Shown here one piece after another: positions 35,776 to 46,914 of a stretch of 64,000 nt of DNA (within the stretch, counting starts at the first letter, position 1; each line of letters begins with the position of its first letter). A program made the position numbers and the translations under genes. The notes beneath the pieces were generated by a model. The model saw only the letters and a list, made by a program, of their open reading frames with translations. It made no database searches and was not told where the DNA came from. Origin of the DNA: a virus; IMG/VR virus record IMGVR_UViG_3300012929_000018, positions 1 through 64,000 of that record, one strand, 5' to 3'.

Positions 35776-36490
35776 CTTCAAATACCTCGAACAGTTGGTG
35801 CTGTAGATCGCTGATCTTGTGCGGGTCGGCAGTCATCAAGACACCAGGTTGAAATTTCATCCCTACACTAGCATGATAATCCCTCCACTTAAAGTCTCCA
35901 CCTTCTTGATGGGCGTGGGTGATCATTCGCGGCGCCAACTCGATCCGGCGAGGGATAATGAAAGCGTCGGCAACGATCGCTCCGTGAAGGGAAGAGGTTA
36001 CGATCTTTTTGCACCGGCTGATTTCGCGAAGCACTTCCATCGGGTCTTGGGAAACGTCGATGATCCTCGGGTTGAATTTGGTGAACCGCGGGTCAAGAGC
36101 CAACGTCTTGTCGGTCCAGTGGGGCACGATGCCAAGGTCGTATTCCTTATCGCGGTAGCCTACCAGTTCGTCTGCGAGTAAGCCGGGGTCGGCCATAACC
36201 ACATCCCTCTTCAAACCTTTGGCGGTAAGGGGCCCGCGCACGGCAAGAAAAGTAGCGTGAGGTAGGTCAATCACGGTGCTTTCGTGGAGCTTACCTACCC
36301 CGGCAACTACTCCGGTCCAGTTCTTAGGTAGATGCCCTAGAATGGATCCGATCACAACTAGCTCAGCTTCTTCTGGCTTCGCCCAAACAGACTCGAGATT
36401 TGCGAATCTTCGGAGCAACATGGTCGCCAGCCGGTCGCCGAAGTTTGGTTTGTCTTTCCAAAAATATGCTTTTACGGCGGCGTGGATCAC
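35753..36490 (-). CDS. polysaccharide pyruvyl transferase family protein (ExoV-like)
   Basis: NFGD, IGSIL, AVRGPLT, DPGLL, GIVPH, TSSLHGAIVADAF, FKWRDY. Confidence 0.85.
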   Translation of the reverse strand: MIHAAVKAYFWKDKPNFGDRLATMLLRRFANLESVWAKPEEAELVVIGSILGHLPKNWTGVVAGVGKLHESTVIDLPHATFLAVRGPLTAKGLKRDVVMADPGLLADELVGYRDKEYDLGIVPHWTDKTLALDPRFTKFNPRIIDVSQDPMEVLREISRCKKIVTSSLHGAIVADAFIIPRRIELAPRMITHAHQEGGDFKWRDYHASVGMKFQPGVLMTADPHKISDLQHQLFEVFEDVENYFR

Positions 36491-36637
36491 AACATTTAGT
36501 GTATCACGGCTTCGTCCGCTTGCTGTGAAAAAGAAAAATTCTTGAAAAGTTTTTTGCCGGGGAGTAGATTTTCTCAGCCCGAAGTGGATTAAAGGCTGAA
36601 CAGGTCCCAGCAGAATTGGACCCAACGGAGGTAATGA

Positions 36638-37174
36638 ATGAAGAAAGTAATAATCGGAACTCTGTGCAGCGTGGCCCTAGCACTAGGCGCCTATGCGCAG
36701 ACGAATGAGGTAAGCATCAAGCAAAGTGAACGCGGCCCAGCGATGGGTCAACATGAGCGGGTGCAAACCAAAACGGAAATGCGCGGGTCTCCCCGGCAAA
36801 TCCATCGCATGCAGCGAGACCAAATCCGAGAAACCGCAGGTGAGAACCGGCGTATCGAGGAGCATGGAAACGCTGTAATTGAGCGCGGCCATCCACGGAC
36901 TGAGGTGCGCTCGGAGCAGCGCGTTGAAACCCGCGGTGATCGGTTCTTCTTCTTCGGTGGGCGAGAGCTTCACCGTCGAGGCGACTTCGACCGTAACGAC
37001 GTGCACTTCCGCATCGGATTCCACCCTCGATTCTGGTGGACCCAGCACTACACCAACATCGTATTGATCAACGGGTGTTGGTATTACGAGGACGGCGGGT
37101 TCTTCTATCCGGCATACGGATACGACCCTGATTGCAGTTACCCTGACCAAGTGATCTTCTCATTTGGCGACTAA
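36638..37174 (+). CDS. secreted Arg-rich protein with Trp/Tyr-rich C terminus
   Basis: Signal peptide (..ALGAYA-Q); HPRFWWTQHYTNIVLINGCWYY..YPAYGYDP. Confidence 0.75.
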   Translation: MKKVIIGTLCSVALALGAYAQTNEVSIKQSERGPAMGQHERVQTKTEMRGSPRQIHRMQRDQIRETAGENRRIEEHGNAVIERGHPRTEVRSEQRVETRGDRFFFFGGRELHRRGDFDRNDVHFRIGFHPRFWWTQHYTNIVLINGCWYYEDGGFFYPAYGYDPDCSYPDQVIFSFGD

Positions 37175-37189
37175 GGGCGGCGGTTAGAT

Positions 37190-37229
37190 AAGACGCGTAG
37201 TTGGCAGAATCTGTCAGCTACGCGTTTTT
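37190..37229 (+). terminator. hairpin terminator
   Basis: AAGACGCGTAGTTGGCAG-AAT-CTGTCAGCTACGCGTTTTT. Confidence 0.7.
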
Positions 37230-37269
37230 ACTTCTAGCATAATTTGGCTAATTTGTGTATAATTCGCGC

Positions 37270-37347
37270 ACCGGGATAGAGCAGCCTGGCCAGCTCGTCA
37301 CGCTCATAACGTGAAGGTCGTGGGTTCAAATCCCACTCCCGGAACCA
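37270..37347 (+). tRNA. tRNA-Met (CAT), initiator-like, CCA encoded
   Basis: A1/A72 mismatch, TAGAGCAGCCTGG D-arm, CT-CAT-AA loop, TTCAAAT T-loop, ACCA end; TATAAT just upstream. Confidence 0.9.
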
Positions 37348-37352
37348 ATTGT

Positions 37353-38313
37353 ATGCGCTTTATACTACTGTTCTTATTGCTGGTCTCACGCTTGACTTAC
37401 GCCGGTGATACCTACGACTGCATCAACTCGAAGGGTGACTACATCAATTACGGACCGCCCGCACCGCCGCGGAACACCTCAATCGTTGGCGCGATCGATT
37501 CCCGCCGATACGACCGGTGGCTCCCGATGTTGAGCCAAGAAGATGAACGCCGCCTGCTGTTTATACAGGCTGCTCGACTGCGCGAATACGCCATTCTTTA
37601 TGCCAACCCCTGAACAACGCGATGAAGGCCGCCCCTGTGATTGGGAGCCAGAAGAACACGACCCGATTATGGTGGCCGCAATCAAGCGGCTTACTGATGA
37701 AGTTCAGCGATTGAAGCGTGAGGAACGCGAGAAGGCCATCAATGCCGTCTCGGAACAATGCACCTGCACCGCCCTTTTCACGAACGCCTTATGCCCAATT
37801 CACGGCCCAGCGTTCACTCGCCACCTCGAAAATAGAAAGTAACTATGCCCTCCCTCGTATCCGTATCCGAAGCAACCCGAGCCATTCAAAGCCCGTTGTT
37901 GCGCGCCATTGAAACCGTCGTCTCCGAAGAGATTGAAAAAGTCATCGAAGACGCGAAACGCAAAGTCGAGCAGAGAGTTCGCGGTGAAGTCGGTGCCATA
38001 GCCGCCCGTGTCCTTGAGAAGTTCAGCTTCGAGAGGCTGGGGCAGGAGTTAGTGATTCGTGTTGAATTCCCTGGCGCTAAGAGTAAGCTGCCGGGTGATC
38101 TGTAAACCCGTAACCCCGATCCTCGAATGCCCGGTTTGTCCGGCGACGTGGGATCTGGGAAAGGTAGGAGTTCGCGGGCTCGATTATCAAGTGCCGATGC
38201 ATGTCCGAGTTCAATTTCGGGCACCGGCGATTCTCTGCGCGGGCTCGCACAAGAAGCTTCCGCTAACCTTTTACGACGCCGCGCCGTTGTCTCATGGCGA
38301 GCCACTGGCCTAA
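37353..38313 (+). other. four short overlapping hypothetical ORFs (37353-37613 with signal peptide, 37600-37842, 37845-38105, 38095-38313)
   Basis: Tightly packed or overlapping starts and stops. Confidence 0.55.
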
Positions 38314-38388: not shown

Positions 38389-38460
38389 GTGACCGTAGCT
38401 CAATTGGCAGAGCCCTCGGTTGTGGACCTTGAGGTGCGAGTTCGATCCTCGTCGGTCACC
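38389..38460 (+). tRNA. tRNA-His (GTG), irregular anticodon stem, no G-1, no CCA
   Basis: GTGACCG/CGGTCAC acceptor, C73, loop TT-GTG-GA, T-loop TTCGATC. Confidence 0.75.
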
Positions 38461-39173: not shown

Positions 39174-39217
39174 CACGCACATCACGCTTGCGCATAATGC
39201 GTGTGAAGAAAGTAACC

Positions 39218-39352
39218 ATGAAAAACAAATTATCTGAAATCCTGTTCGATCTGAGTGAGCGCCTGCCTAAATGCCTGAACGCATTAGCGTGGACGCTCGA
39301 CCGTGTGAGCCGCGCTATGGTAGCGAATAGCGTTGACTCAATCGGACTTTGA
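39218..39352 (+). CDS. 44-aa hypothetical protein (not in the ORF track)
   Basis: Between palindrome copies 2 and 3; GAAAG then ATG. Confidence 0.5.
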   Translation: MKNKLSEILFDLSERLPKCLNALAWTLDRVSRAMVANSVDSIGL

Positions 39353-39404
39353 CTGTCACACGCCTTCGAGCGCAGCGCGCTATGTGTGCGCATAATGCGC
39401 TCGA

Positions 39405-39880
39405 AGGAAGTGACCGCCAGTCGGTTGCTCGGAAATGAGCGAAGCAGAGTAGCGAGTGAATGAAAGCGGGTAGTCGCATGAGTCGCCACAGCGTCAATCT
39501 CATGTGTAAGCTGCGAATAGCTCGTGAGGGTAGCTACAAGCGTGTTCTAGTCCGGAAAATTAACCATCCGGTTTCGTAAGGGTGTTCAATGATGCTACAC
39601 CCACGGTGAGGCCCGAACAAACGGGTGCGTAGAAGCGAGTTGGCTCTCGTGGAACGCATCACGCAAAAGCCTGATCGTCGGATATTAAAAACCAAATTCA
39701 ACACGCATACGAGTGACGCGACGTTATTCGTAGATGGCTGCGCGACGCAGCTATCAGCGTGCAGCCCTGTGGCCCTGCTACAATGTTCCAGAATACGCGT
39801 GATGCGTAGGACGGCAGCATTTCAGGGACACTAGCCAGTGCATCTCACACGTGACGTGTGACGTGTTACAGGGTTGCAAT
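39405..39880 (+). ncRNA. large structured RNA candidate 1
   Basis: No credible ORF; nested helices with G-U pairs and repeated C-GYGAY-G loops. Confidence 0.6.
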
Positions 39881-39888
39881 CTGATACC

Positions 39889-40317
39889 ATGAGTGATTTA
39901 ACCATTCAAGCGAACGGTCAGGCTCTAACGCTCGGAAACTTCGGCGGGGTCACTAAACCCGACTTCCGAACGAAAAACGCGAAGGAGTATCTGTCCGCGC
40001 ATTTCGGTGTCACTGTAGTCAAAGGCATGAAAATGCCTGACGTGAAAGCGGCTGTCCTCGCGACGGGCGTTACGGAAGCGAATTTCAAACTCGCCCGTAA
40101 AACCTACGACGGGAACAAGCAACAGTATCACGTCGAGTGCCGCAAAGTGACGGCGCTTCTCGCGGCTGACCCGAATTATCGGCAGTCCATTCGCAAGATG
40201 AAAACGGGTGCGGTTGTGACGTTCCGTAAAATCGGGGCCGTTGCTGCCAAGCAATCTGCCGCCGCCCGTATCGCGCAGTTGGAAGCGAAGCTCGCAGCGG
40301 CGGGCATCGCGGCCTAA
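39889..40317 (+). CDS. basic 142-aa hypothetical protein between two structured RNAs
   Basis: Lys/Arg/Ala-rich, C-terminal coiled coil ARIAQLEAKLAAAG. Confidence 0.75.
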   Translation: MSDLTIQANGQALTLGNFGGVTKPDFRTKNAKEYLSAHFGVTVVKGMKMPDVKAAVLATGVTEANFKLARKTYDGNKQQYHVECRKVTALLAADPNYRQSIRKMKTGAVVTFRKIGAVAAKQSAAARIAQLEAKLAAAGIAA

Positions 40318-40822
40318 TCGCGTCGGCGCGACTTCGGAGTGTGAATGTCTGTGGGTGCGCAAGCGCCCACAGCAATTCGCTCTCACCTAAGGTGAACAGC
40401 TAGGCATACGCTATGAAAACAGTGCGGCTTTAGGGAACGATAGCGAAGAAAAGTGGCGAAGCGTAAATCGGGTTGGCCCGTAAAGCCTAACGATCAGGCG
40501 CGCGCAAGTCGCACCCCGCGACTAGGCCCCAAACGGCGAAAGCACGTTGCAACGTGCCCGCTGCGTTGGTCAGCGGCGGGTGTGCGGCGCATGTTGAGTG
40601 CTCAGTCAGGCTGGGTGGAAGTAGGCGCGTGAACATGACGCGCGCTGAGAAGCGGCGGGCCAAAAGCTCGCAAAATAGGCCCATGCTGCCGCGCGGTGGC
40701 ATGTGACGCACCCGGCCTGACTGCGCACAAGCGTAGTAGATGTGATTTCGGTTACAGCTAGTTCTTTGAATTACAACTAAGATTACGTTCTCACTGGCAC
40801 GCTGGCTCTGCCTAAACCAGCA
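40318..40822 (+). ncRNA. large structured RNA candidate 2
   Basis: No credible ORF; 15-bp long-range helix, GCAA, GAGA and TTCG tetraloop hairpins. Confidence 0.6.
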
Positions 40823-40828
40823 CAATTT

Positions 40829-41449
40829 ATGAACCATGCAATGACACCACGCGAAAACTATCGCCCTTATACGCCTGCGGAAATCCAGGCTATTCGTGCG
40901 GCCGGGCGCATCACGCGCGCCGCGCGATGGGACTGCGCCAACCTCGAACAAAGGATGGAAATGCACCCTGAATTGAACCCGAACAAGCGGTGGTTTGAGC
41001 AGAAGGCGTGGAAACTACTATGACCATCGAAGTAAAACGAGACGGAAAGACGGTCTGCACGATCATCAAAGGCTCGGGCAGAATTAGCAGCGACAAGCTG
41101 AAATTGCTCGCGATCAGATATAACGCGGGCCATTTAAGCACTTTCAACGATATGCGCGAGGTAGTTCGACAGGCGAAAGTCATTCGCTTGGAGAAAGCTC
41201 TCGCGGTAATGTGCGCATAATGCGCGCGAAGCAGATAACCAACAACGAAAGGAAACCATGAAACACACCATCACACTGACAAAGGACAAAGAGACGAAGA
41301 ACAAAATTCGTTTCTCGAACGAACCCACCGACGCGATTAGCGGAAGCTTATACATCGCGAAGGAACTCGTCGGCAACGTGAATGCGATTCAGTTCGCAAT
41401 CGAGTTGCCCGAGGTTGCGGTGACTGCTCCGACTCCGGTCGAAGCGTAG
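40829..41449 (+). other. three short hypothetical ORFs (40829-41023, 41020-41220, 41258-41449)
   Basis: ATGA overlap; GAAAGGA RBS before 41258. Confidence 0.6.
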
Positions 41450-42961: not shown

Positions 42962-43540
42962 TTATGATGGTAGTGATACTGGCGCTGTCGGCGCTGGTAG
43001 CTGTGCCGTTGTGGGCGGCGTTTGAGTTTGCGATGCTTCCTTGGCATCTTCACCGGATGCATCGGAGACAATCTCGCCCTCGATCACGACGGGAGTAGGT
43101 TCATCGTCGGCGCTCATCGCCTCATTGATGTTGATGAGTGTCTGTGATACCACATCCTGAGTGTCGAGACCTGCGGCGCGCCGAGCAATTTTGTCAGCGA
43201 GTTCAGCTTCGCGGAAATTGCTCGGCGCCTTGGCCTTCATCAATTTCAGCGAATCATGGGCTAAGTTGAAAGCTACCTTGCGGTGGTTTTCACCTTTCTC
43301 CAACCATTCATCGGCTTTCTTGGCAATGGCATTCTCAGCGGCCTTTTCAGCGGCTCGCGTTTGGATAGCCCCGATCATGCGTGATACGAGCGTCAATCGC
43401 TTGCGGTTCACCCGCCTGCGAATGGTGTTCGCCGATACGCCAAATCGGGCCGAAAGCTCCTGAATGTTAAGGCATTCGGCGGTGGCTGCATCTTGAATGG
43501 CGACCCAAGGGATACCTTTGGTGGGCGGTCTCTTCTCCAT
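42962..43540 (-). CDS. putative terminase small subunit (N-terminal HTH)
   Basis: IPWVAIQ..IQELSARFGVSANTIRRRVNR HTH, helical middle, ININ..VIEGEIV tail; lone minus-strand gene in this region. Confidence 0.6.
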   Translation of the reverse strand: MEKRPPTKGIPWVAIQDAATAECLNIQELSARFGVSANTIRRRVNRKRLTLVSRMIGAIQTRAAEKAAENAIAKKADEWLEKGENHRKVAFNLAHDSLKLMKAKAPSNFREAELADKIARRAAGLDTQDVVSQTLININEAMSADDEPTPVVIEGEIVSDASGEDAKEASQTQTPPTTAQLPAPTAPVSLPS

Positions 43541-44030
43541 GTGTGACCGCAACCTTACGACAAACTTTATGGATAAGCAAGACGAAACGGTAGATCGTTG
43601 CACCCGCATACGCGCGCCATGGACAAAGTGGCGTTTGTGTGTCGGCGTGGAGACGAAATACATGCCGATCGTTATGGCCGGGCTCTCTAACGAGGGCGCG
43701 CTCAAGGTCGGCATGATTACAGCTTGCCAGAGCAAGCTTGAGGGCGGGATTATTGTTCTACGCCCTTTACACGGAGCAAATTGATGGACATAAATCAAAC
43801 GCACGACGCCATCCAGAAGGCGATGAGCGACGCTAGGGAAACTCCCGAATACAAGCAAGAAGGCGAGGAACTGAAAAAGTTTAACCCGCGGAAGCGCGGT
43901 GGCGCTGCGTATCCTAAACGCAGCGGCATGTCACGGCGCAAGCTACGAGCAAAACAACTCGCGCCGCCGATCACACAGGAGCGCACGAATGCGTTGCTCG
44001 ACGCTGCGCTGAAAGTTTGGAGTTTGAAGC

Positions 44031-44780
44031 ATGGATACACAGACTAACGACAGACCCAAGATGCGGATAGACTTCCCATCGCAATACGCGTGGGAACAAT
44101 ACCTTCGCGACCAGCCTGTGCCAGCATTACTCGGCTATCGTTCGATGCTAGAAGTGGCACTCGACGCGCCAACCCCGCCCACGCAGCTACGCCTGGATAT
44201 GCGCACGCGCACAGGTAATGTGCCGCATCATGCCAGTGCTGATGTGGTGAAGTCGGATTACTTGTCGAATGTTATGTCACCCATCGGGTTACAGAAGGTC
44301 GTGCGTAAGGTGTGCTCGGTCATTAAGAAAAGCGGCGTCGAGTTCGATTCGATTGCATTCCGTGGATTCAGTGGAGCGTTGGTTGCGCCGCTGGTCGCCT
44401 GTCGATTGAAGAAAGGATTCCTCGCGGTGCGCAAGCACAAGGATAACGAGGATTGTCATTCGAGCTATCCTGTCGAGGGCGCAGTCAAAGCGCATTGCCA
44501 TTACATAATCATTGACGACATTATCAGCAGCGGCGCAACCGTCTGGAACATCGTTACCGAACTCAACACTTTCAAATATATTGATGTTTCCACTAACGGG
44601 AACACCGACTACCAGATCTTCAAACGCAAGTGCGTGGGTGTGTTCCTTTACAACTCATGGGTGAGCGATAAGGGTAAGGGACACGGCTTCGACTTCGAGA
44701 CGCGCGAGATTCATGCTGCCTACGGTGCTGACACCGAGGATTCATTTCATCTGCCTGTTTGGTCGTTCTCGGCAAAATAG
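44031..44780 (+). CDS. type I phosphoribosyltransferase-like protein
   Basis: PRPP-binding YIIIDDIISSGAT, IAFRGFSG, AVRK. Confidence 0.8.
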   Translation: MDTQTNDRPKMRIDFPSQYAWEQYLRDQPVPALLGYRSMLEVALDAPTPPTQLRLDMRTRTGNVPHHASADVVKSDYLSNVMSPIGLQKVVRKVCSVIKKSGVEFDSIAFRGFSGALVAPLVACRLKKGFLAVRKHKDNEDCHSSYPVEGAVKAHCHYIIIDDIISSGATVWNIVTELNTFKYIDVSTNGNTDYQIFKRKCVGVFLYNSWVSDKGKGHGFDFETREIHAAYGADTEDSFHLPVWSFSAK

Positions 44781-44955: not shown

Positions 44956-46908
44956 ATGAACGGACGAAACAAAAGCACTGCAACCCTGCCACCCTGCAAC
45001 CCTGAACGGGGTAATCCGAACTTCGTGAGCATCATTGCTCAGTCACTGTGGTTCGTGGAAATGATGCCGCAGGGCTACAGGCACGGAGAGGAACGGCGCA
45101 ATGAGGTGTTCATGATGAACGTGACACCCGCTGAGTTCCAATGCCTGCAATACAAGAAGATGCGCGACTTCAAGCGAGTTCGCTTAGGTGAACAGGCGCT
45201 CGCGAATCATCGCAAGATCGACAATTTCAGGCCGATGTTCGGCACTCTGAGTCGGAGTCAACGACTCGCAAAACGGGAAAGGAAGAATGAAAGACGTAAA
45301 GATAAAGCTAACGTTCCAACGTGTGCATAACATAGGCCGCGGCGGAACGGTCAACCAAAAGTATCAACTCAATCAAATTGAGAACGCGGTGACCGCGCGA
45401 GTTGCTAGCCCAGAGGCGGGCGCGTGGACGATCTATCGCGTGGGTGACATAGTGTCAGAGGCCCACGTGCAAGAGTTCGTCGCCGACAAACACTTCTACG
45501 AAGTGAAGGTGAAGTCATGACAGTTCAAGAATTCTACACCGACGAGAGTAAGTGGTGCAAGGACACGCTGTCAGACGGCAAAGGGGCGACGTGCCTACTC
45601 GGCGCGCTGTCCTCGTGTCATCAAACGAAGGGCGCCTACACGCAGGCATTGGGACAGCTTGTAGCTGCAATCCAAGCCTACGTGGGCTACACTTCGGTTG
45701 CTCGATTCAACGACGCCGAGACAACCACCTTCGCGGACATTGTGAAGGTAGTGAGAATGGCGGGTGTATAATGGAATCAATCAAAATGATTAAGCGTGAC
45801 GTGGTGGGCGCGGGCACCGGGCCTAAGTTGTGCCCGGTCGCACGCGCGTTGAAGCGCCACTTCGGAGCGGAGCAATCAAGCTGTGGCTTCACAACATGCA
45901 ATATCGAGATACGGAGCGGCCCTCGAACAGTCGAGCGGCGCTACTTCGATTTGGATAATAAAACTGCGGTGAAGATTCACAAATTCGAGGATATGCCGGG
46001 AACTGAGGTTGGGCCTTGGCGCCTGCCTCACACAATCAAACTAACGGAGACCACATGAGCGTGGATACCAATCAAGATGAAACCAACCTGCGCTATGCGC
46101 TCACACAACCAGACCGCACCGTGTATGAGAAACTACGCGCGCACCTGATTGAGCAGCATGGCTATGATGGGTTTCGTGAGATTCAAAGGAGTGCATTTCG
46201 CGTGCTCGCGAGTTTGTGCTCAGGATAATTTATGTTACTAAGCGAATGCTGTAGCGCCCCACCTTGGGGCACCGAAGAATACGGAATCTGTGGTGACTGC
46301 AAAGAGCATTGCGGATTCTATGACGACGAGGAACCTGTGCGCGAGCGCATGGAGTTCTCACCCGAACAACAGGCAATCATCGACAAGTTGATGCTGCCGG
46401 TATGCGTGGAGTGCGATCAGCCAGTGGCTGTATTCAGCGACGGCGGCACACTCCACCACAACAACAGCGGACAGATCGACGCCGAGAGCGACGCCGATCA
46501 TGCGCCGCGCATCAAGGAAGGTTGAATGAGCACATGGGCCAAGACTTTTGCGGCGGACCAGCACGCTAGGCGTGTATCTGGAATGCGAACATGGTCAGTG
46601 CGGTGCGATCAATGCGCCGTGCTGGTTATCAACAATGTGGTATGCCATGAGCACGGCTGCCCAACACAACGAAAGAAACGATGAACACAGAACAACGCAG
46701 AGATGTGCGCGGGGCGCTGATTAAGGTCGGCTTCAACCGCGGATATAGCATCGGCGACGATCAGATCGAACGAGTAGTCCATGCCGTCGCCGGTGTGGAA
46801 GGTGAGCGCCGCAAAGGGTGTTACACCGAGCTATTCAAACACCCAGACGGGACGCTCGTGTCGGTAACGTGGGCTGAGAAAAGCCACCTTCCGTCGAGGA
46901 ACTGCTAA
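44956..46908 (+). other. run of short hypothetical ORFs
   Basis: Overlapping start/stop chain including 45287-45520, 45771-46058, 46232-46525 (Cys-rich) and 46681-46908. Confidence 0.5.
45517..45771 (+). CDS. small phage protein (DUF6197-like)
   Basis: W.....CLLGAL..FNDA.TTTF.DIV pattern. Confidence 0.55.
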   Translation: MTVQEFYTDESKWCKDTLSDGKGATCLLGALSSCHQTKGAYTQALGQLVAAIQAYVGYTSVARFNDAETTTFADIVKVVRMAGV

Positions 46909-46914
46909 CAATTT

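What the first reader, a model, noticed from the sequence alone, without database searches (positions are those of the whole stretch)
39388..40822. Two ~500-nt densely folded RNAs flanking one small basic protein: candidate novel phage ribonucleoprotein module
Seen: in an otherwise tightly packed genome, 39405-39880 and 40318-40822 have no credible ORF but are almost wholly base-paired. RNA1 has long-range helices GCGTGTT/AACACGC (39540/39700) and TGCAGCCCTGTGGC/GTTACAGGGTTGCA (39760/39865, with G-U pairs) enclosing multi-branch domains. RNA2 has CAGTCAGGCTGGGTG/CACCCGGCCTGACTG (40603/40709) enclosing four hairpins, plus GCAA, GAGA and TTCG tetraloops. The wobble pairs read as G-U only on the plus strand, which favours RNA over DNA cruciforms. 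A GCGCATAATGCGC element sits right before RNA1. Known: phages carry large ncRNAs near tRNA clusters (GOLLD, ROOL) and cis-acting antiterminator RNAs (HK022 put). Inference: a new large-ncRNA class with the 142-aa Lys/Arg-rich protein as partner, or an early antitermination device.
Basis: partly seen in the sequence, partly recalled or inferred. Interest (0 to 1): 0.85.

Follow-up and report, generated by a model that had tools for sequence, protein, structure and literature searches.

The report
Conserved large phage RNA before small protein
One of the two proposed RNAs is a real, conserved, about 480-base folded RNA that always sits directly in front of a small basic protein gene in a group of uncultured soil phages and matches no known RNA family, while the other is a variable, dispensable spacer.

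Summary
RNA1 (39412-39885, + strand) is real. In three distinct relatives it is better conserved than the protein gene behind it (91%/79% against 83%/73% identity). Its substitutions show no codon periodicity. They keep 140 consensus pairs in 20 helices, with 18 G-U and no A-C pairs in the window. In the wider alignment, 23 pairs carry compensatory changes, against 7.8 in shuffles. It matches no Rfam 15 family.

RNA1 follows one of seven plus-oriented GCGCATAATGCGC motifs; the other six each sit 12-35 bases before a start codon. Its last helix ends 3 bases before the ATG of the 142-aa protein (pI 10.1), which has no Shine-Dalgarno sequence. The translated 3' strand of RNA1 also appears in four over-extended gene calls of relatives, down to 34% protein identity. 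The RNA-protein linkage is therefore old.

RNA2 is not a unit. It has a conserved 3' hairpin (40337-40384), a variable centre that is replaced or absent in relatives, and a conserved stretch before the next gene.

Folding energy alone is not special in this region.

The scan had already noted this same stretch on this genome, but on no other DNA.

Best reading: a new class of large structured leader RNA, coupled in cis to its protein. The function is inferred, not shown.

The parts
39388..39400 (+). Promoter-like palindrome GCGCA-TAA-TGCGC containing a -10-like CATAAT. It is one of seven plus-oriented copies in the 82.5-kb genome.
   Evidence: 17 matches at up to 2 mismatches on both strands, against 3.52 expected; seven plus-oriented copies. 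Six lie 12-35 bases before an ATG; this one precedes RNA1. The motif is also present before RNA1 in L002 and L003. Its role as a promoter is inferred. No -35 element is conserved, and the sigma-70 scan finds nothing here.
39363..39407 (+). Hairpin that encloses the palindrome (12 + 6 pairs).
   Evidence: Consensus fold, (helices 2 and 3). L003 has a 15-base deletion in the left arm, but the changed right half (GCAC) can still pair with a changed left arm (read from alignment A2). Function unknown.
39412..39535 (+). RNA1 5' part: two short hairpins (39412-26 and 39427-40, the second with a GAAA loop) and a long three-segment arm (39443-39535).
   Evidence: Helix 39475-82/39499-506 has 2 compensatory pairs: CATGAG/CTCATG becomes CATACG/CGTATG in L002.
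39540..39706 (+). RNA1 central multibranch domain, closed by GCGTGTT/AACACGC and holding three arms. It includes a stretch of about 54 bases (39531-39585) that is almost invariant in all three lineages.
   Evidence: Helices 39622-30/39654-63 and 39635-39/39646-50 carry 3 and 4 compensatory pairs. A contig of run X4 adds G39581A together with C39601T, a kept pair in helix 39580-85/39597-602.
39708..39752 (+). Two hairpins with C-GCGAC-G loops (stems of 11 and 7 pairs).
   Evidence: 4 and 3 compensatory pairs.
39753..39885 (+). RNA1 3' three-way domain, closed by a 17-pair helix whose 3' strand ends 3 bases before the ATG. It holds two more C-GTGAY-G hairpins.
   Evidence: The translated 3' strand (RVTGLQSDT) recurs in the over-extended gene calls P0004, P0010, P0011 and P0016.
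39889..40317 (+). Gene for a 142-aa basic protein (pI 10.1) of an unannotated family. No Shine-Dalgarno sequence lies before its ATG.
   Evidence: Substitutions concentrate at codon position 3: 13/10/49 (L002) and 23/22/67 (L003). There are 9 close homologues and 55 family representatives. No Pfam, PHROG or PDB match.
40337..40384 (+). Conserved hairpin just after the stop codon (19 pairs, GCAA loop, no U tract).
   Evidence: 22 predicted pairs in the 73-column alignment, 5 of them compensatory, in 3 sequences. The terminator scan does not call it. A role as 3' end or stabiliser is inferred.
40385..40717 (+). Variable centre of 'RNA2'. A module of about 90 bases (40504-40595) is shared with L002 only. 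The rest is specific to the window, including the 15-bp helix 40603/40709.
   Evidence: 50% (L002) and 36% (L003) identity. L003 lacks most of it. X4 contigs join 40385 to 40738 with 12 other letters between, and 40385 to 40711 with 150 other letters between; 6 compensatory pairs in the shared module (2 sequences only).
40718..40828 (+). Conserved stretch before the next gene (ATG 40829), with the hairpin GTGATTTCGGTTAC.
   Evidence: 85.5% and 70.7% identity. Alignment A3 shows the stem changing in a paired way: GTGAC..GTCAC in L002 and GTGGC..GCCAC in L003.

Best explanation
RNA1 is a genuine, evolutionarily conserved structured RNA of about 475 bases, read from the plus strand. It belongs to no described family. 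It forms the 5' part of an early phage transcript that continues into the 142-aa basic protein gene and ends near the conserved hairpin at 40337-40384.

Shown:
- The fold has 20 helices, two multibranch domains and four hairpins with the same C-GYGAY-G loop.
- Compensatory changes maintain the fold.
- RNA1 is more conserved than the protein gene.
- It sits between a promoter-like motif and the ATG.
- There is no Shine-Dalgarno sequence, and the ATG lies 3 bases after the last helix.
- The RNA and the gene stay together down to 34% protein identity.

Inferred:
- The motif is an early promoter.
- The 3' domain hides the ribosome-binding region, so translation is low or conditional.
- The protein binds the repeated hairpin loops of its own leader. 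Its family has a basic core and an alanine-rich C-terminal helix that may let it oligomerise. Binding would give either a stable RNA-protein particle or feedback control of its own synthesis. This resembles lambda N acting on nutL in the structured leader of its own mRNA.

RNA2 is not part of this unit beyond the 3' hairpin.

The confidence given is for the cis-coupled RNA-protein reading as a whole. I put the reality of RNA1 as a conserved structured RNA at about 0.95.
For: Conservation and lack of coding signal:
- RNA1 is 91.4% (L002) and 79.1% (L003) identical, against 83.2% and 72.7% for the ORF.
- RNA1 mismatches by phase are 13/17/12 and 32/34/34. The ORF gives 13/10/49 and 23/22/67.

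Covariation:
- The alignment A2 has 163 predicted pairs, and 98.3% of 635 cells are paired.
- 23 pairs changed on both sides, against 7.8 +/- 2.1 in shuffles (0 of 500 reach it) and 0-5 with slid partners.
- The same procedure on the ORF gives 12 compensatory cells but 38 unpaired cells. RNA1 gives 25 and 11.
- A contig of an independent soil run adds one more kept pair, 39581/39601.

Strand: 18 G-U and 0 A-C pairs. Plus-strand z-scores are lower than minus-strand ones.

No known family: at gathering score only 5 tRNAs are found in the 64 kb. At E up to 10 there are only three weak hits far below their cut-offs, none of them on RNA1 proper on the plus strand.

Position:
- Seven plus-oriented motif copies exist, and six lie directly before genes.
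- The last helix ends at 39885 and the ATG is at 39889.

Linkage:
- RNA1 precedes the gene in the window, L002 and L003. L004 is near-identical to the window and is not counted as independent.
- The peptide [TA]GLQSD, which is the translated 3' strand of RNA1, stands directly before the true start in 4 of the 62 family proteins in hand. These are P0004, P0010, P0011 and P0016, at 77, 47, 42 and 34% identity. Most of the other 58 are called from their own Met and carry no information; P0019 reads LLASDM there, an uncertain variant.

Repeated loops:
- 4 of the 5 plus-strand C-GYGAY-G hairpins in the 82.5-kb genome lie within 39708-39866.
- The loop keeps this form in all 12 instances (4 hairpins x 3 lineages, read from A2), while the stems covary.

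Precedent: nutL lies about 200 bp upstream of lambda N, N and the Nus factors repress N translation, and the intervening leader is highly structured (passage in the Discussion of PMC5725501).
Against: - There is no expression evidence. No listed sequencing run that holds the stretch is on record as RNA, so the transcript ends, any processing and the promoter are unproven.
- Only three independent DNA sequences of RNA1 were available. With so few sequences the covariation test also 'passes' on the coding control (11 compensatory pairs against 4.8). The case therefore rests on the ratio of kept to broken pairs and on the missing codon periodicity.
- Folding energy is not distinctive here.
- Nothing shows that the protein binds RNA. 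It has no Pfam, PHROG or PDB relative and no arginine-rich N-terminus. The Atlas model is poor (pLDDT 0.57).
- A 54-base invariant core and two multibranch domains are more elaborate than known autoregulatory leaders. That fits a trans-acting or catalytic RNA at least as well.
- In P0010 about 27 bases separate the RNA1 end from the start codon. Occlusion of the start by the last helix is therefore not universal.
- An alternative 10-pair form of hairpin 39733-39755 would free CUGAU.
Confidence: 0.45

Rival explanations
1. RNA1 is an independent, trans-acting large non-coding RNA of the GOLLD/ROOL kind. It would be cut from, or terminated within, the early transcript. The protein next to it would merely be co-expressed.
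For: - Its size, multistem junctions and invariant core fit this kind.
- It is phage-borne, with tRNA genes within 1-1.6 kb on either side (38389 and 41500).
- GOLLD and ROOL are described as large RNAs often near tRNAs and in prophages (PMC5737381, ROOL section).
- RNA1 is more conserved than the protein gene.
Against: - No match to any Rfam model, even at E up to 10.
- The RNA abuts the same gene family in seven lineages: three seen as DNA and four inferred from over-extended gene calls. That adjacency is not described for GOLLD or ROOL.
- No terminator-like site separates RNA1 from the ATG.
Confidence: 0.2
2. The module is an N/nut-like processive antitermination device. The four GNRA-like pentaloop hairpins would be boxB-type sites on the nascent early transcript. 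The small basic protein would bind them and modify RNA polymerase so that it reads through downstream signals.
For: - Four hairpins carry C-GYGAY-G loops (GNRA plus one base). They are clustered and their loops do not vary.
- They lie just downstream of an early-promoter-like motif and upstream of a small basic protein gene, as nutL and N do in lambda (for the lambda layout).
- Conserved hairpins without U tracts follow the gene.
Against: - The protein has no arginine-rich N-terminal motif (sequence).
- I did not find a conserved boxA-like element. A CGCTCTC stretch after the 3' hairpin is not kept in L003.
- Only about 160 of the 475 bases would be explained.
- Energy models prefer a YGA triloop closed by G-Y over a pentaloop.
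- The boxB loop rule is recalled, not tested here.
Confidence: 0.15
3. RNA1 is a self-splicing intron, or another ribozyme, lodged between a Shine-Dalgarno-like GAAGGAAG (39403-39410) and the ATG. Its removal would create a working ribosome-binding site.
For: - The bases after the motif (GAAGGAAGTGACC) resemble the short leaders of two other motif-driven genes: GAAGAAAGTAACC-ATG at 39190 and GAAGCAGATAACC at 41213.
- U39411 could form a U-G wobble with G39427 inside a P1-like hairpin, and a G (39883) lies 5 bases before the ATG (read).
- Joining at these points would give GGAAGU-AUACC-AUG.
Against: - No hit to the group I or group II models of Rfam, even at E up to 10.
- By hand I found no P3/P7 pseudoknot, no guanosine pocket and no domain V-like hairpin. 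A search for extra conserved pairings gave no covarying long-range helix.
- The P1-like pairing competes with the GAAA hairpin at 39427-40.
- The distance from the RNA1 end to the start differs among relatives: 0, 3 and about 27 bases.
- ACC-ATG is a common start context in this phage.
Confidence: 0.05
4. The conservation reflects something other than an RNA. It could be a hidden protein-coding gene, or a DNA-level element such as an origin, iterons or protein-binding palindromes.
For: - A minus-strand frame stays open over 39340-39547 in the window, L004 and L002.
- Two CCCTG repeats lie at 39765-39777.
- In L002 the RNA2 counterpart folds equally well on both strands (z -5.71 and -5.57).
Against: - There is no codon periodicity.
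- Indels shift every longer frame among relatives.
- No database protein matches a translated RNA1 frame.
- The 18 G-U pairs would be A-C mismatches on the other strand.
- Paired double substitutions keep helices rather than words.
Confidence: 0.03

Closest known systems
Lambda pL-nutL-N arrangement (the structured N leader, with N autoregulation)
   Same: - An early promoter is followed by a long, highly structured leader carrying hairpin sites, then the gene of a small basic protein.
- In lambda, the protein acts on its own leader and represses its own translation (PMC5725501, Discussion passage).
   Different: - RNA1 is more than twice as long.
- It has two multibranch domains and a 54-base invariant core.
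- It carries four hairpins rather than one.
- The protein lacks an arginine-rich N-terminus and shows no sequence relation to N.
- No boxA was found. Antitermination is untested.
GOLLD and ROOL large ornate RNAs
   Same: - Large RNAs with several junctions.
- Found in phages and prophages, often near tRNA genes, with function unknown (PMC5737381; abstract of PMC12286853 in the listings).
   Different: - No match to any Rfam model.
- RNA1 is shorter than ROOL's 581-nt average.
- RNA1 is fixed directly in front of one protein family.
- It is known so far only from soil metagenomes.
IscB omega-RNA (HEARO) layout
   Same: A large structured RNA lies immediately 5' of the ORF of the protein it works with. 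This layout is recalled from the literature and was not checked in a paper here.
   Different: - The protein has 142 aa and no nuclease domain (no Pfam hit).
- There is no guide segment and no transposon context.
Candidate structured RNAs of viruses and phages (PMC10690425)
   Same: That survey used comparative prediction of structured RNAs in IMG/VR genomes, including cis-regulatory candidates directly upstream of genes.
   Different: - Those candidates are 30-151 bases long (passage in section 2.1).
- RNA1 as a whole is about 475 bases, and I found no relative of it in IMG/VR.
- I could not see the paper's supplementary motif lists. A sub-hairpin of RNA1 could be listed there.

Membership tests
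Any Rfam 15 family (including GOLLD, ROOL, group I and II introns, tmRNA, RNase P, riboswitches) | Match to the family's covariance model at or near its gathering score | tested here: not met
   the 64-kb window gives only 5 tRNAs at gathering score. (39300-40900, E up to 10) gives three weak hits:
- Clostridiales-1, 19.6 bits against a cut-off of 48, minus strand, 40242-40401.
- mir-6526, 16.9 bits against 57, minus strand, 39350-39420.
- sR9, 16.4 bits against 36, inside the ORF.
None lies on RNA1 proper on the plus strand.
GOLLD/ROOL-like large phage RNAs (as a kind) | More than 400 nt, several multistem junctions, phage or prophage context near tRNA genes | tested here: met
   RNA1 has 140 pairs in 20 helices and two multibranch domains. 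tRNA genes lie at 38389 and 41500. The phage genome is 82.5 kb. This is a resemblance of kind only; family membership fails (row above).
Group I intron | P1 with a U-G wobble at the 5' splice site | tested here: inconclusive
   A U39411-G39427 pair is possible within hairpin 39409-39429 (read). It competes with the GAAA hairpin at 39427-40. No sequence varies there.
Group I intron | Conserved P3-P7 pseudoknot core with a guanosine-binding P7 | tested here: not met
   No Rfam hit. A search for extra pairings kept in all sequences found no covarying long-range helix. Manual inspection found no P7.
Group II intron | 5' GUGYG, a domain V hairpin with AGC triad and bulge, and a domain VI bulged A | tested here: not met
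   No Rfam hit. The candidate hairpins at 39708-32 and 39736-52 have no bulge and no AGC triad. The consensus features are recalled.
Lambda N / nut antitermination | boxB: a short hairpin with a GNRA-like pentaloop on the nascent early transcript | tested here: inconclusive
   Four hairpins can be drawn with C-GYGAY-G loops. Energy models draw a YGA triloop instead. The boxB rule is recalled.
Lambda N / nut antitermination | An arginine-rich motif at the N-terminus of the protein, and a boxA element | tested here: not met
   The first 30 residues hold 1 R and 2 K (sequence). No conserved boxA-like word was found: CGCTCTC at 40378 is lost in L003.
Type III toxin-antitoxin (ToxIN-like) | An antitoxin RNA made of tandem direct repeats upstream of the toxin gene | tested here: not met
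   there are no tandem or multi-copy direct repeats in 39340-40830, only 2-copy chance-like matches of 12-32 bases.
IscB/TnpB omega-RNA systems | A partner protein with RuvC (and HNH) nuclease domains | tested here: not met
   No Pfam family passes for the protein or for 46 family members.
tRNA-like or tmRNA | Detection by ARAGORN or by the Rfam tRNA/tmRNA models | tested here: not met
   none within 39388-40828. At a lowered threshold ARAGORN prints low-score calls, such as a 94-base 'tRNA-Asn' at 40558-40651. I treat these as noise.

The most novel reading that the evidence does not exclude
RNA1 and the 142-aa protein form a previously unknown early-expressed phage ribonucleoprotein. The roughly 475-base RNA would be the working part: a scaffold, a decoy for a host factor or defence sensor, or a ribozyme or large ligand sensor. 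The four identical hairpin loops would dock an oligomer of the protein. On this reading the pair has co-evolved across a family of at least 55 protein clusters in uncultured phages.
Probability: 0.3. Interest if true: 0.85.

Novelty: new variant of a known kind. Interest (0 to 1): 0.62.

Why it matters
Large, intricately folded bacterial and phage RNAs are rare, and several of them (GOLLD, ROOL, OLE) have turned out to have unexpected architectures. RNA1 is a new candidate of that size class. Unlike those RNAs, it has a fixed protein partner gene and a defined place in an early phage transcript. That gives an experimental handle: binding assays, reporter fusions and structure work can start from one 1-kb fragment. 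It also shows that a protein family seen only as 'hypothetical' in soil metagenomes travels with a conserved RNA that gene callers sometimes translate by mistake.

Tried and rejected
More relatives of RNA1:
- The search for related loci found nothing in viral contigs with the protein, with A1 or with A5. It also found nothing in genome contigs.
- Exact DNA probes from the invariant parts found nothing in viral contigs or in genome contigs.
- The 17-base 3'-strand probe gave 21 IMG/VR loci. None has the gene or an RNA1-like context, and several look like the reverse strand of tRNA genes. A local hmmsearch hit only L002 and L003 out of 2,112 translated frames.
- L005, is not a family member.
- Cultured phages gave no DNA match and no protein match.
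- No longer, fused forms of the protein were found.

Expression: no RNA holder is listed. Depth gaps over 40434-40703 in runs X2-X4 are not used as evidence. Only the contigs that join across the region are used.

Protein function:
- Pfam, PHROGs and PDB gave nothing.
- The Atlas gave only TM below 0.4 on a poor model.
- Weak sub-threshold Pfam hits (HTH_MCM7 in 7 of 46 members, best E 0.013, and coiled-coil families in single members) are hints only.

Promoter type:
- I considered an N4-like hairpin promoter read by a virion RNA polymerase, because the motif has a 5-bp stem and a 3-base loop and the genome holds a 2,663-aa ORF.
- That ORF has no match in PHROGs, Pfam, PDB or cultured phages, so the idea is left open.

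Other checks:
- Folding energy as evidence is rejected as non-specific.
- A small upstream ORF coupled to the ATG (GTG 39863 ... TGA 39890) is rejected, because L003 has a stop at its second codon (read from A2).
- A pseudo-ORF search of RNA1 found nothing.
- I did not use complex prediction, because it cannot test protein-RNA binding.
- No covariance model was built.
- The supplementary lists of PMC10690425 were not seen.
Full report
**Setting.** The window is the first 64 kb of an 82,502-base IMG/VR virus record rated 100% complete. PHROG matches mark tail fibres, a helicase-exonuclease, a family A DNA polymerase and an rIIA-like protein. The finding lies in a plus-strand region of small unannotated genes with five tRNA genes. 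None of nine small proteins around it, the 142-aa protein included, matches Pfam or PHROGs.

**Observation.**
- Both stretches fold better than dinucleotide shuffles, and more so on the plus strand. RNA1 gives z -3.36 against -1.64, and RNA2 gives -3.80 against -1.94.
- A sliding scan of 480-base windows from 34 to 46 kb (12 shuffles each, so noisy) gave z between -3.6 and -4.8 for several other windows, coding ones included. Thermodynamics alone does not single these stretches out.
- Rfam finds only the five tRNAs at gathering score. Within 39300-40900 at E up to 10 it finds nothing credible.

**Relatives.**
- The protein has nine close homologues in metagenome protein sets.
L004 is 99.5% identical to the window in DNA and is not counted as independent.
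- No relative was found in IMG/VR, in GTDB genomes or in cultured phages, either by protein or by exact DNA probes.

**RNA1 is a conserved structured RNA.**
- Conservation: RNA1 is 91.4% (L002) and 79.1% (L003) identical to the window, and so more conserved than the ORF at 83.2% and 72.7%.
- No coding signal: its mismatches are spread evenly over the three phases (13/17/12 and 32/34/34). Those of the ORF pile up at the third codon position (13/10/49 and 23/22/67).
- Open frames in RNA1 are short and are shifted by indels among relatives. A 74-codon frame has no database counterpart.
- Consensus fold: the fold of alignment A2 has 163 pairs, of which 140 in 20 helices lie in RNA1 proper, 39412-39885.
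- Covariation: 98.3% of 635 cells are paired. 23 pairs changed on both sides, against 7.8 +/- 2.1 in shuffles (0 of 500 reach it) and 0-5 when partners are slid by 1-3 columns.
- Control: I ran the same procedure on the ORF. It gave 91.5% paired and 11 compensatory pairs against 4.8, so the shuffle test is permissive with so few sequences. However, the ORF has 38 unpaired cells for 12 compensatory ones, while RNA1 has 11 for 25.
- Examples, read: CATGAG/CTCATG becomes CATACG/CGTATG; GCGAG/CTCGT becomes ATAGG/CCTAT; CTGCG..CGCAG becomes GCACG..CGTGC.
- Independent support: a contig of another soil run (X4) adds G39581A together with C39601T, a kept pair in a helix that never varies in A2.
- Strand: the window's RNA1 has 18 G-U and no A-C pairs, which fixes the plus strand.
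- Extent of pairing: 280 of 474 bases are paired, so 'almost wholly base-paired' is too strong.

**Anatomy of RNA1** (window coordinates):
- Two short 5' hairpins, 39412-26 and 39427-40.
- A long arm, 39443-39535.
- A multibranch domain closed by 39540-46/39700-06, with three arms. Around its 5' side lies a stretch of about 54 bases that is almost invariant in all lineages.
- Two hairpins, 39708-32 and 39736-52.
- A three-way domain closed by a 17-pair helix, 39753-71/39867-85.
- Four hairpins in the last 160 bases share the loop C-GYGAY-G. They are 4 of only 5 such plus-strand hairpins in the whole 82.5-kb genome. The loop keeps this form in all 12 instances (4 hairpins in 3 lineages), while the stems covary.
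- There are no tandem repeats.

**Context.**
- GCGCATAATGCGC occurs seven times in the genome, always with TAA on the plus strand. Six copies lie 12-35 bases before an ATG, usually with a GGA-type Shine-Dalgarno sequence. The seventh is followed by RNA1.
- The motif also precedes RNA1 in L002 and L003.
- No -35 element is shared, and the sigma-70 scan is silent. 'Early promoter' is therefore an inference.
- The last RNA1 helix ends at 39885 and the ATG is at 39889. No Shine-Dalgarno sequence lies between them.
- After the stop codon, a hairpin at 40337-40384 is conserved with 5 compensatory pairs in three sequences.

**The RNA-protein linkage is old.**
- A profile search of 1.84 billion representatives found 55 family members of about 140-190 aa. 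None has a Pfam, PHROG or PDB relation.
- In the window, L002 and L003, the bases before the ATG translate in frame to RVTGLQSDT.
- The same peptide stands before the true start Met in four gene calls that were extended too far upstream: P0004, P0010, P0011 and P0016, at 77, 47, 42 and 34% identity to the window protein.
- This stretch is non-coding, so identity at the peptide level means near identity of the RNA 3' strand.
- Most of the other 58 of the 62 proteins in hand are called from their own Met and say nothing either way; P0019, P0046 and P0049 also carry upstream extensions, and P0019 reads LLASDM there, an uncertain variant.
- In P0010 about 27 bases separate this strand from the start.

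**RNA2.**
- The 5' hairpin(s) and the last 110 bases are conserved, but the centre (40385-40717) is not. It is 50% and 36% identical, and L003 lacks most of it.
- One X4 contig joins 40385 to 40738 with 12 other letters between. Another joins 40385 to 40711 with 150 other letters between.
- A module of about 90 bases (40504-40595) is shared with L002 and shows 6 compensatory pairs, in two sequences only.
- The counterparts in L002 and L003 are also rich in hairpins. In L002 this holds equally on both strands (z -5.71 and -5.57; L003 -2.75 and -1.98).
- I read RNA2 as a conserved 3' hairpin of the RNA1-ORF transcript, followed by a variable hairpin-rich spacer, followed by the upstream region of the next gene. 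It is not a second partner RNA.

**Mechanism.**
- Shown: the fold, its conservation, its strand, its place between motif and ATG, the missing Shine-Dalgarno sequence, the repeated loops and the linkage.
- Inferred: transcription starts near 39403. The 3' domain masks the ribosome-binding region. The basic protein (pI 10.1) binds the repeated loops of its own leader. The result would be either a stable particle or feedback control.
- The nearest worked example is lambda. There nutL lies about 200 bp before N in a highly structured leader, and N with the Nus factors represses N translation (PMC5725501, Discussion passage).
- Rivals: a trans-acting GOLLD/ROOL-like RNA; a true N/nut-type antiterminator; a self-splicing intron between a Shine-Dalgarno-like GAAGGAAG and the ATG; and a non-RNA explanation. 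They are weighed in their own sections.
- The intron idea has a tempting P1-like U-G pair but fails the Rfam models and a search for a core pseudoknot.

**Known or new.**
- No Rfam 15 family matches.
- A 2023 survey of structured RNAs in IMG/VR reports candidates of only 30-151 bases (PMC10690425, passage in section 2.1). I could not see its supplementary lists.
- My literature searches turned up no description of such an RNA. They cover only the held open-access library.
- Earlier notes of this scan on the same genome had already listed the seven motif copies and the four like-looped hairpins. I checked both here. No look-alike stretch was noted in other genomes.

**Limits.**
- Only three independent DNA sequences were available.
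- There are no RNA reads.
- The host is unknown.

Noticed in passing
Own genome 65833-73821, minus strand (outside the window; L034:1833-9821): An ORF of 2,663 aa has no match in PHROGs, Pfam, PDB sequences or cultured phages. Given the hairpin-shaped motif GCGCA-TAA-TGCGC, I wondered about an N4-like virion RNA polymerase. Nothing supports or excludes that.
   Followed up: partly
window 38605, 39190, 39388, 41213, 50507, 52061, 55362: There are seven plus-oriented copies of GCGCATAATGCGC, and the consensus extends to TGYGCGCATAATGCGCGNGAA. In L002, two extra small genes between the counterparts of 39173 and 39348 each bring their own copy (L002 3122 and 3321). They look like promoter-gene cassettes.
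   Followed up: partly
window 39351-39359: The palindrome TGAC-N-GTCA lies right after the stop codon of the upstream 44-aa ORF. It is kept in L002 and L003 (as TGACAGTCA) although the flanks differ. It could be a protein-binding site.
   Followed up: no
window 36400-37360, 43120-44080, 45040-46000: Other 480-base windows have folding z-scores of -3.6 to -4.8, some on both strands (12 shuffles only). The whole early region seems rich in structure.
   Followed up: no
window 46059-46914: This stretch of about 850 bases has no ORF of 100 aa or more on either strand. I did not examine it.
   Followed up: no
ARAGORN at default and at a lowered threshold, and Rfam, report no tRNA between 41576 and 41892.
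   Followed up: partly
They pair with CAGGG at 39870-74 and 39823-27. I did not look at the other listed sites.
   Followed up: partly
window 39733-39755: Hairpin 39736-52 can extend to 10 pairs by using GAU/AUC. That competes with the AUCAG/CUGAU pairing next to the start codon, and both forms are compatible with all sequences. This could be a switch.
   Followed up: no
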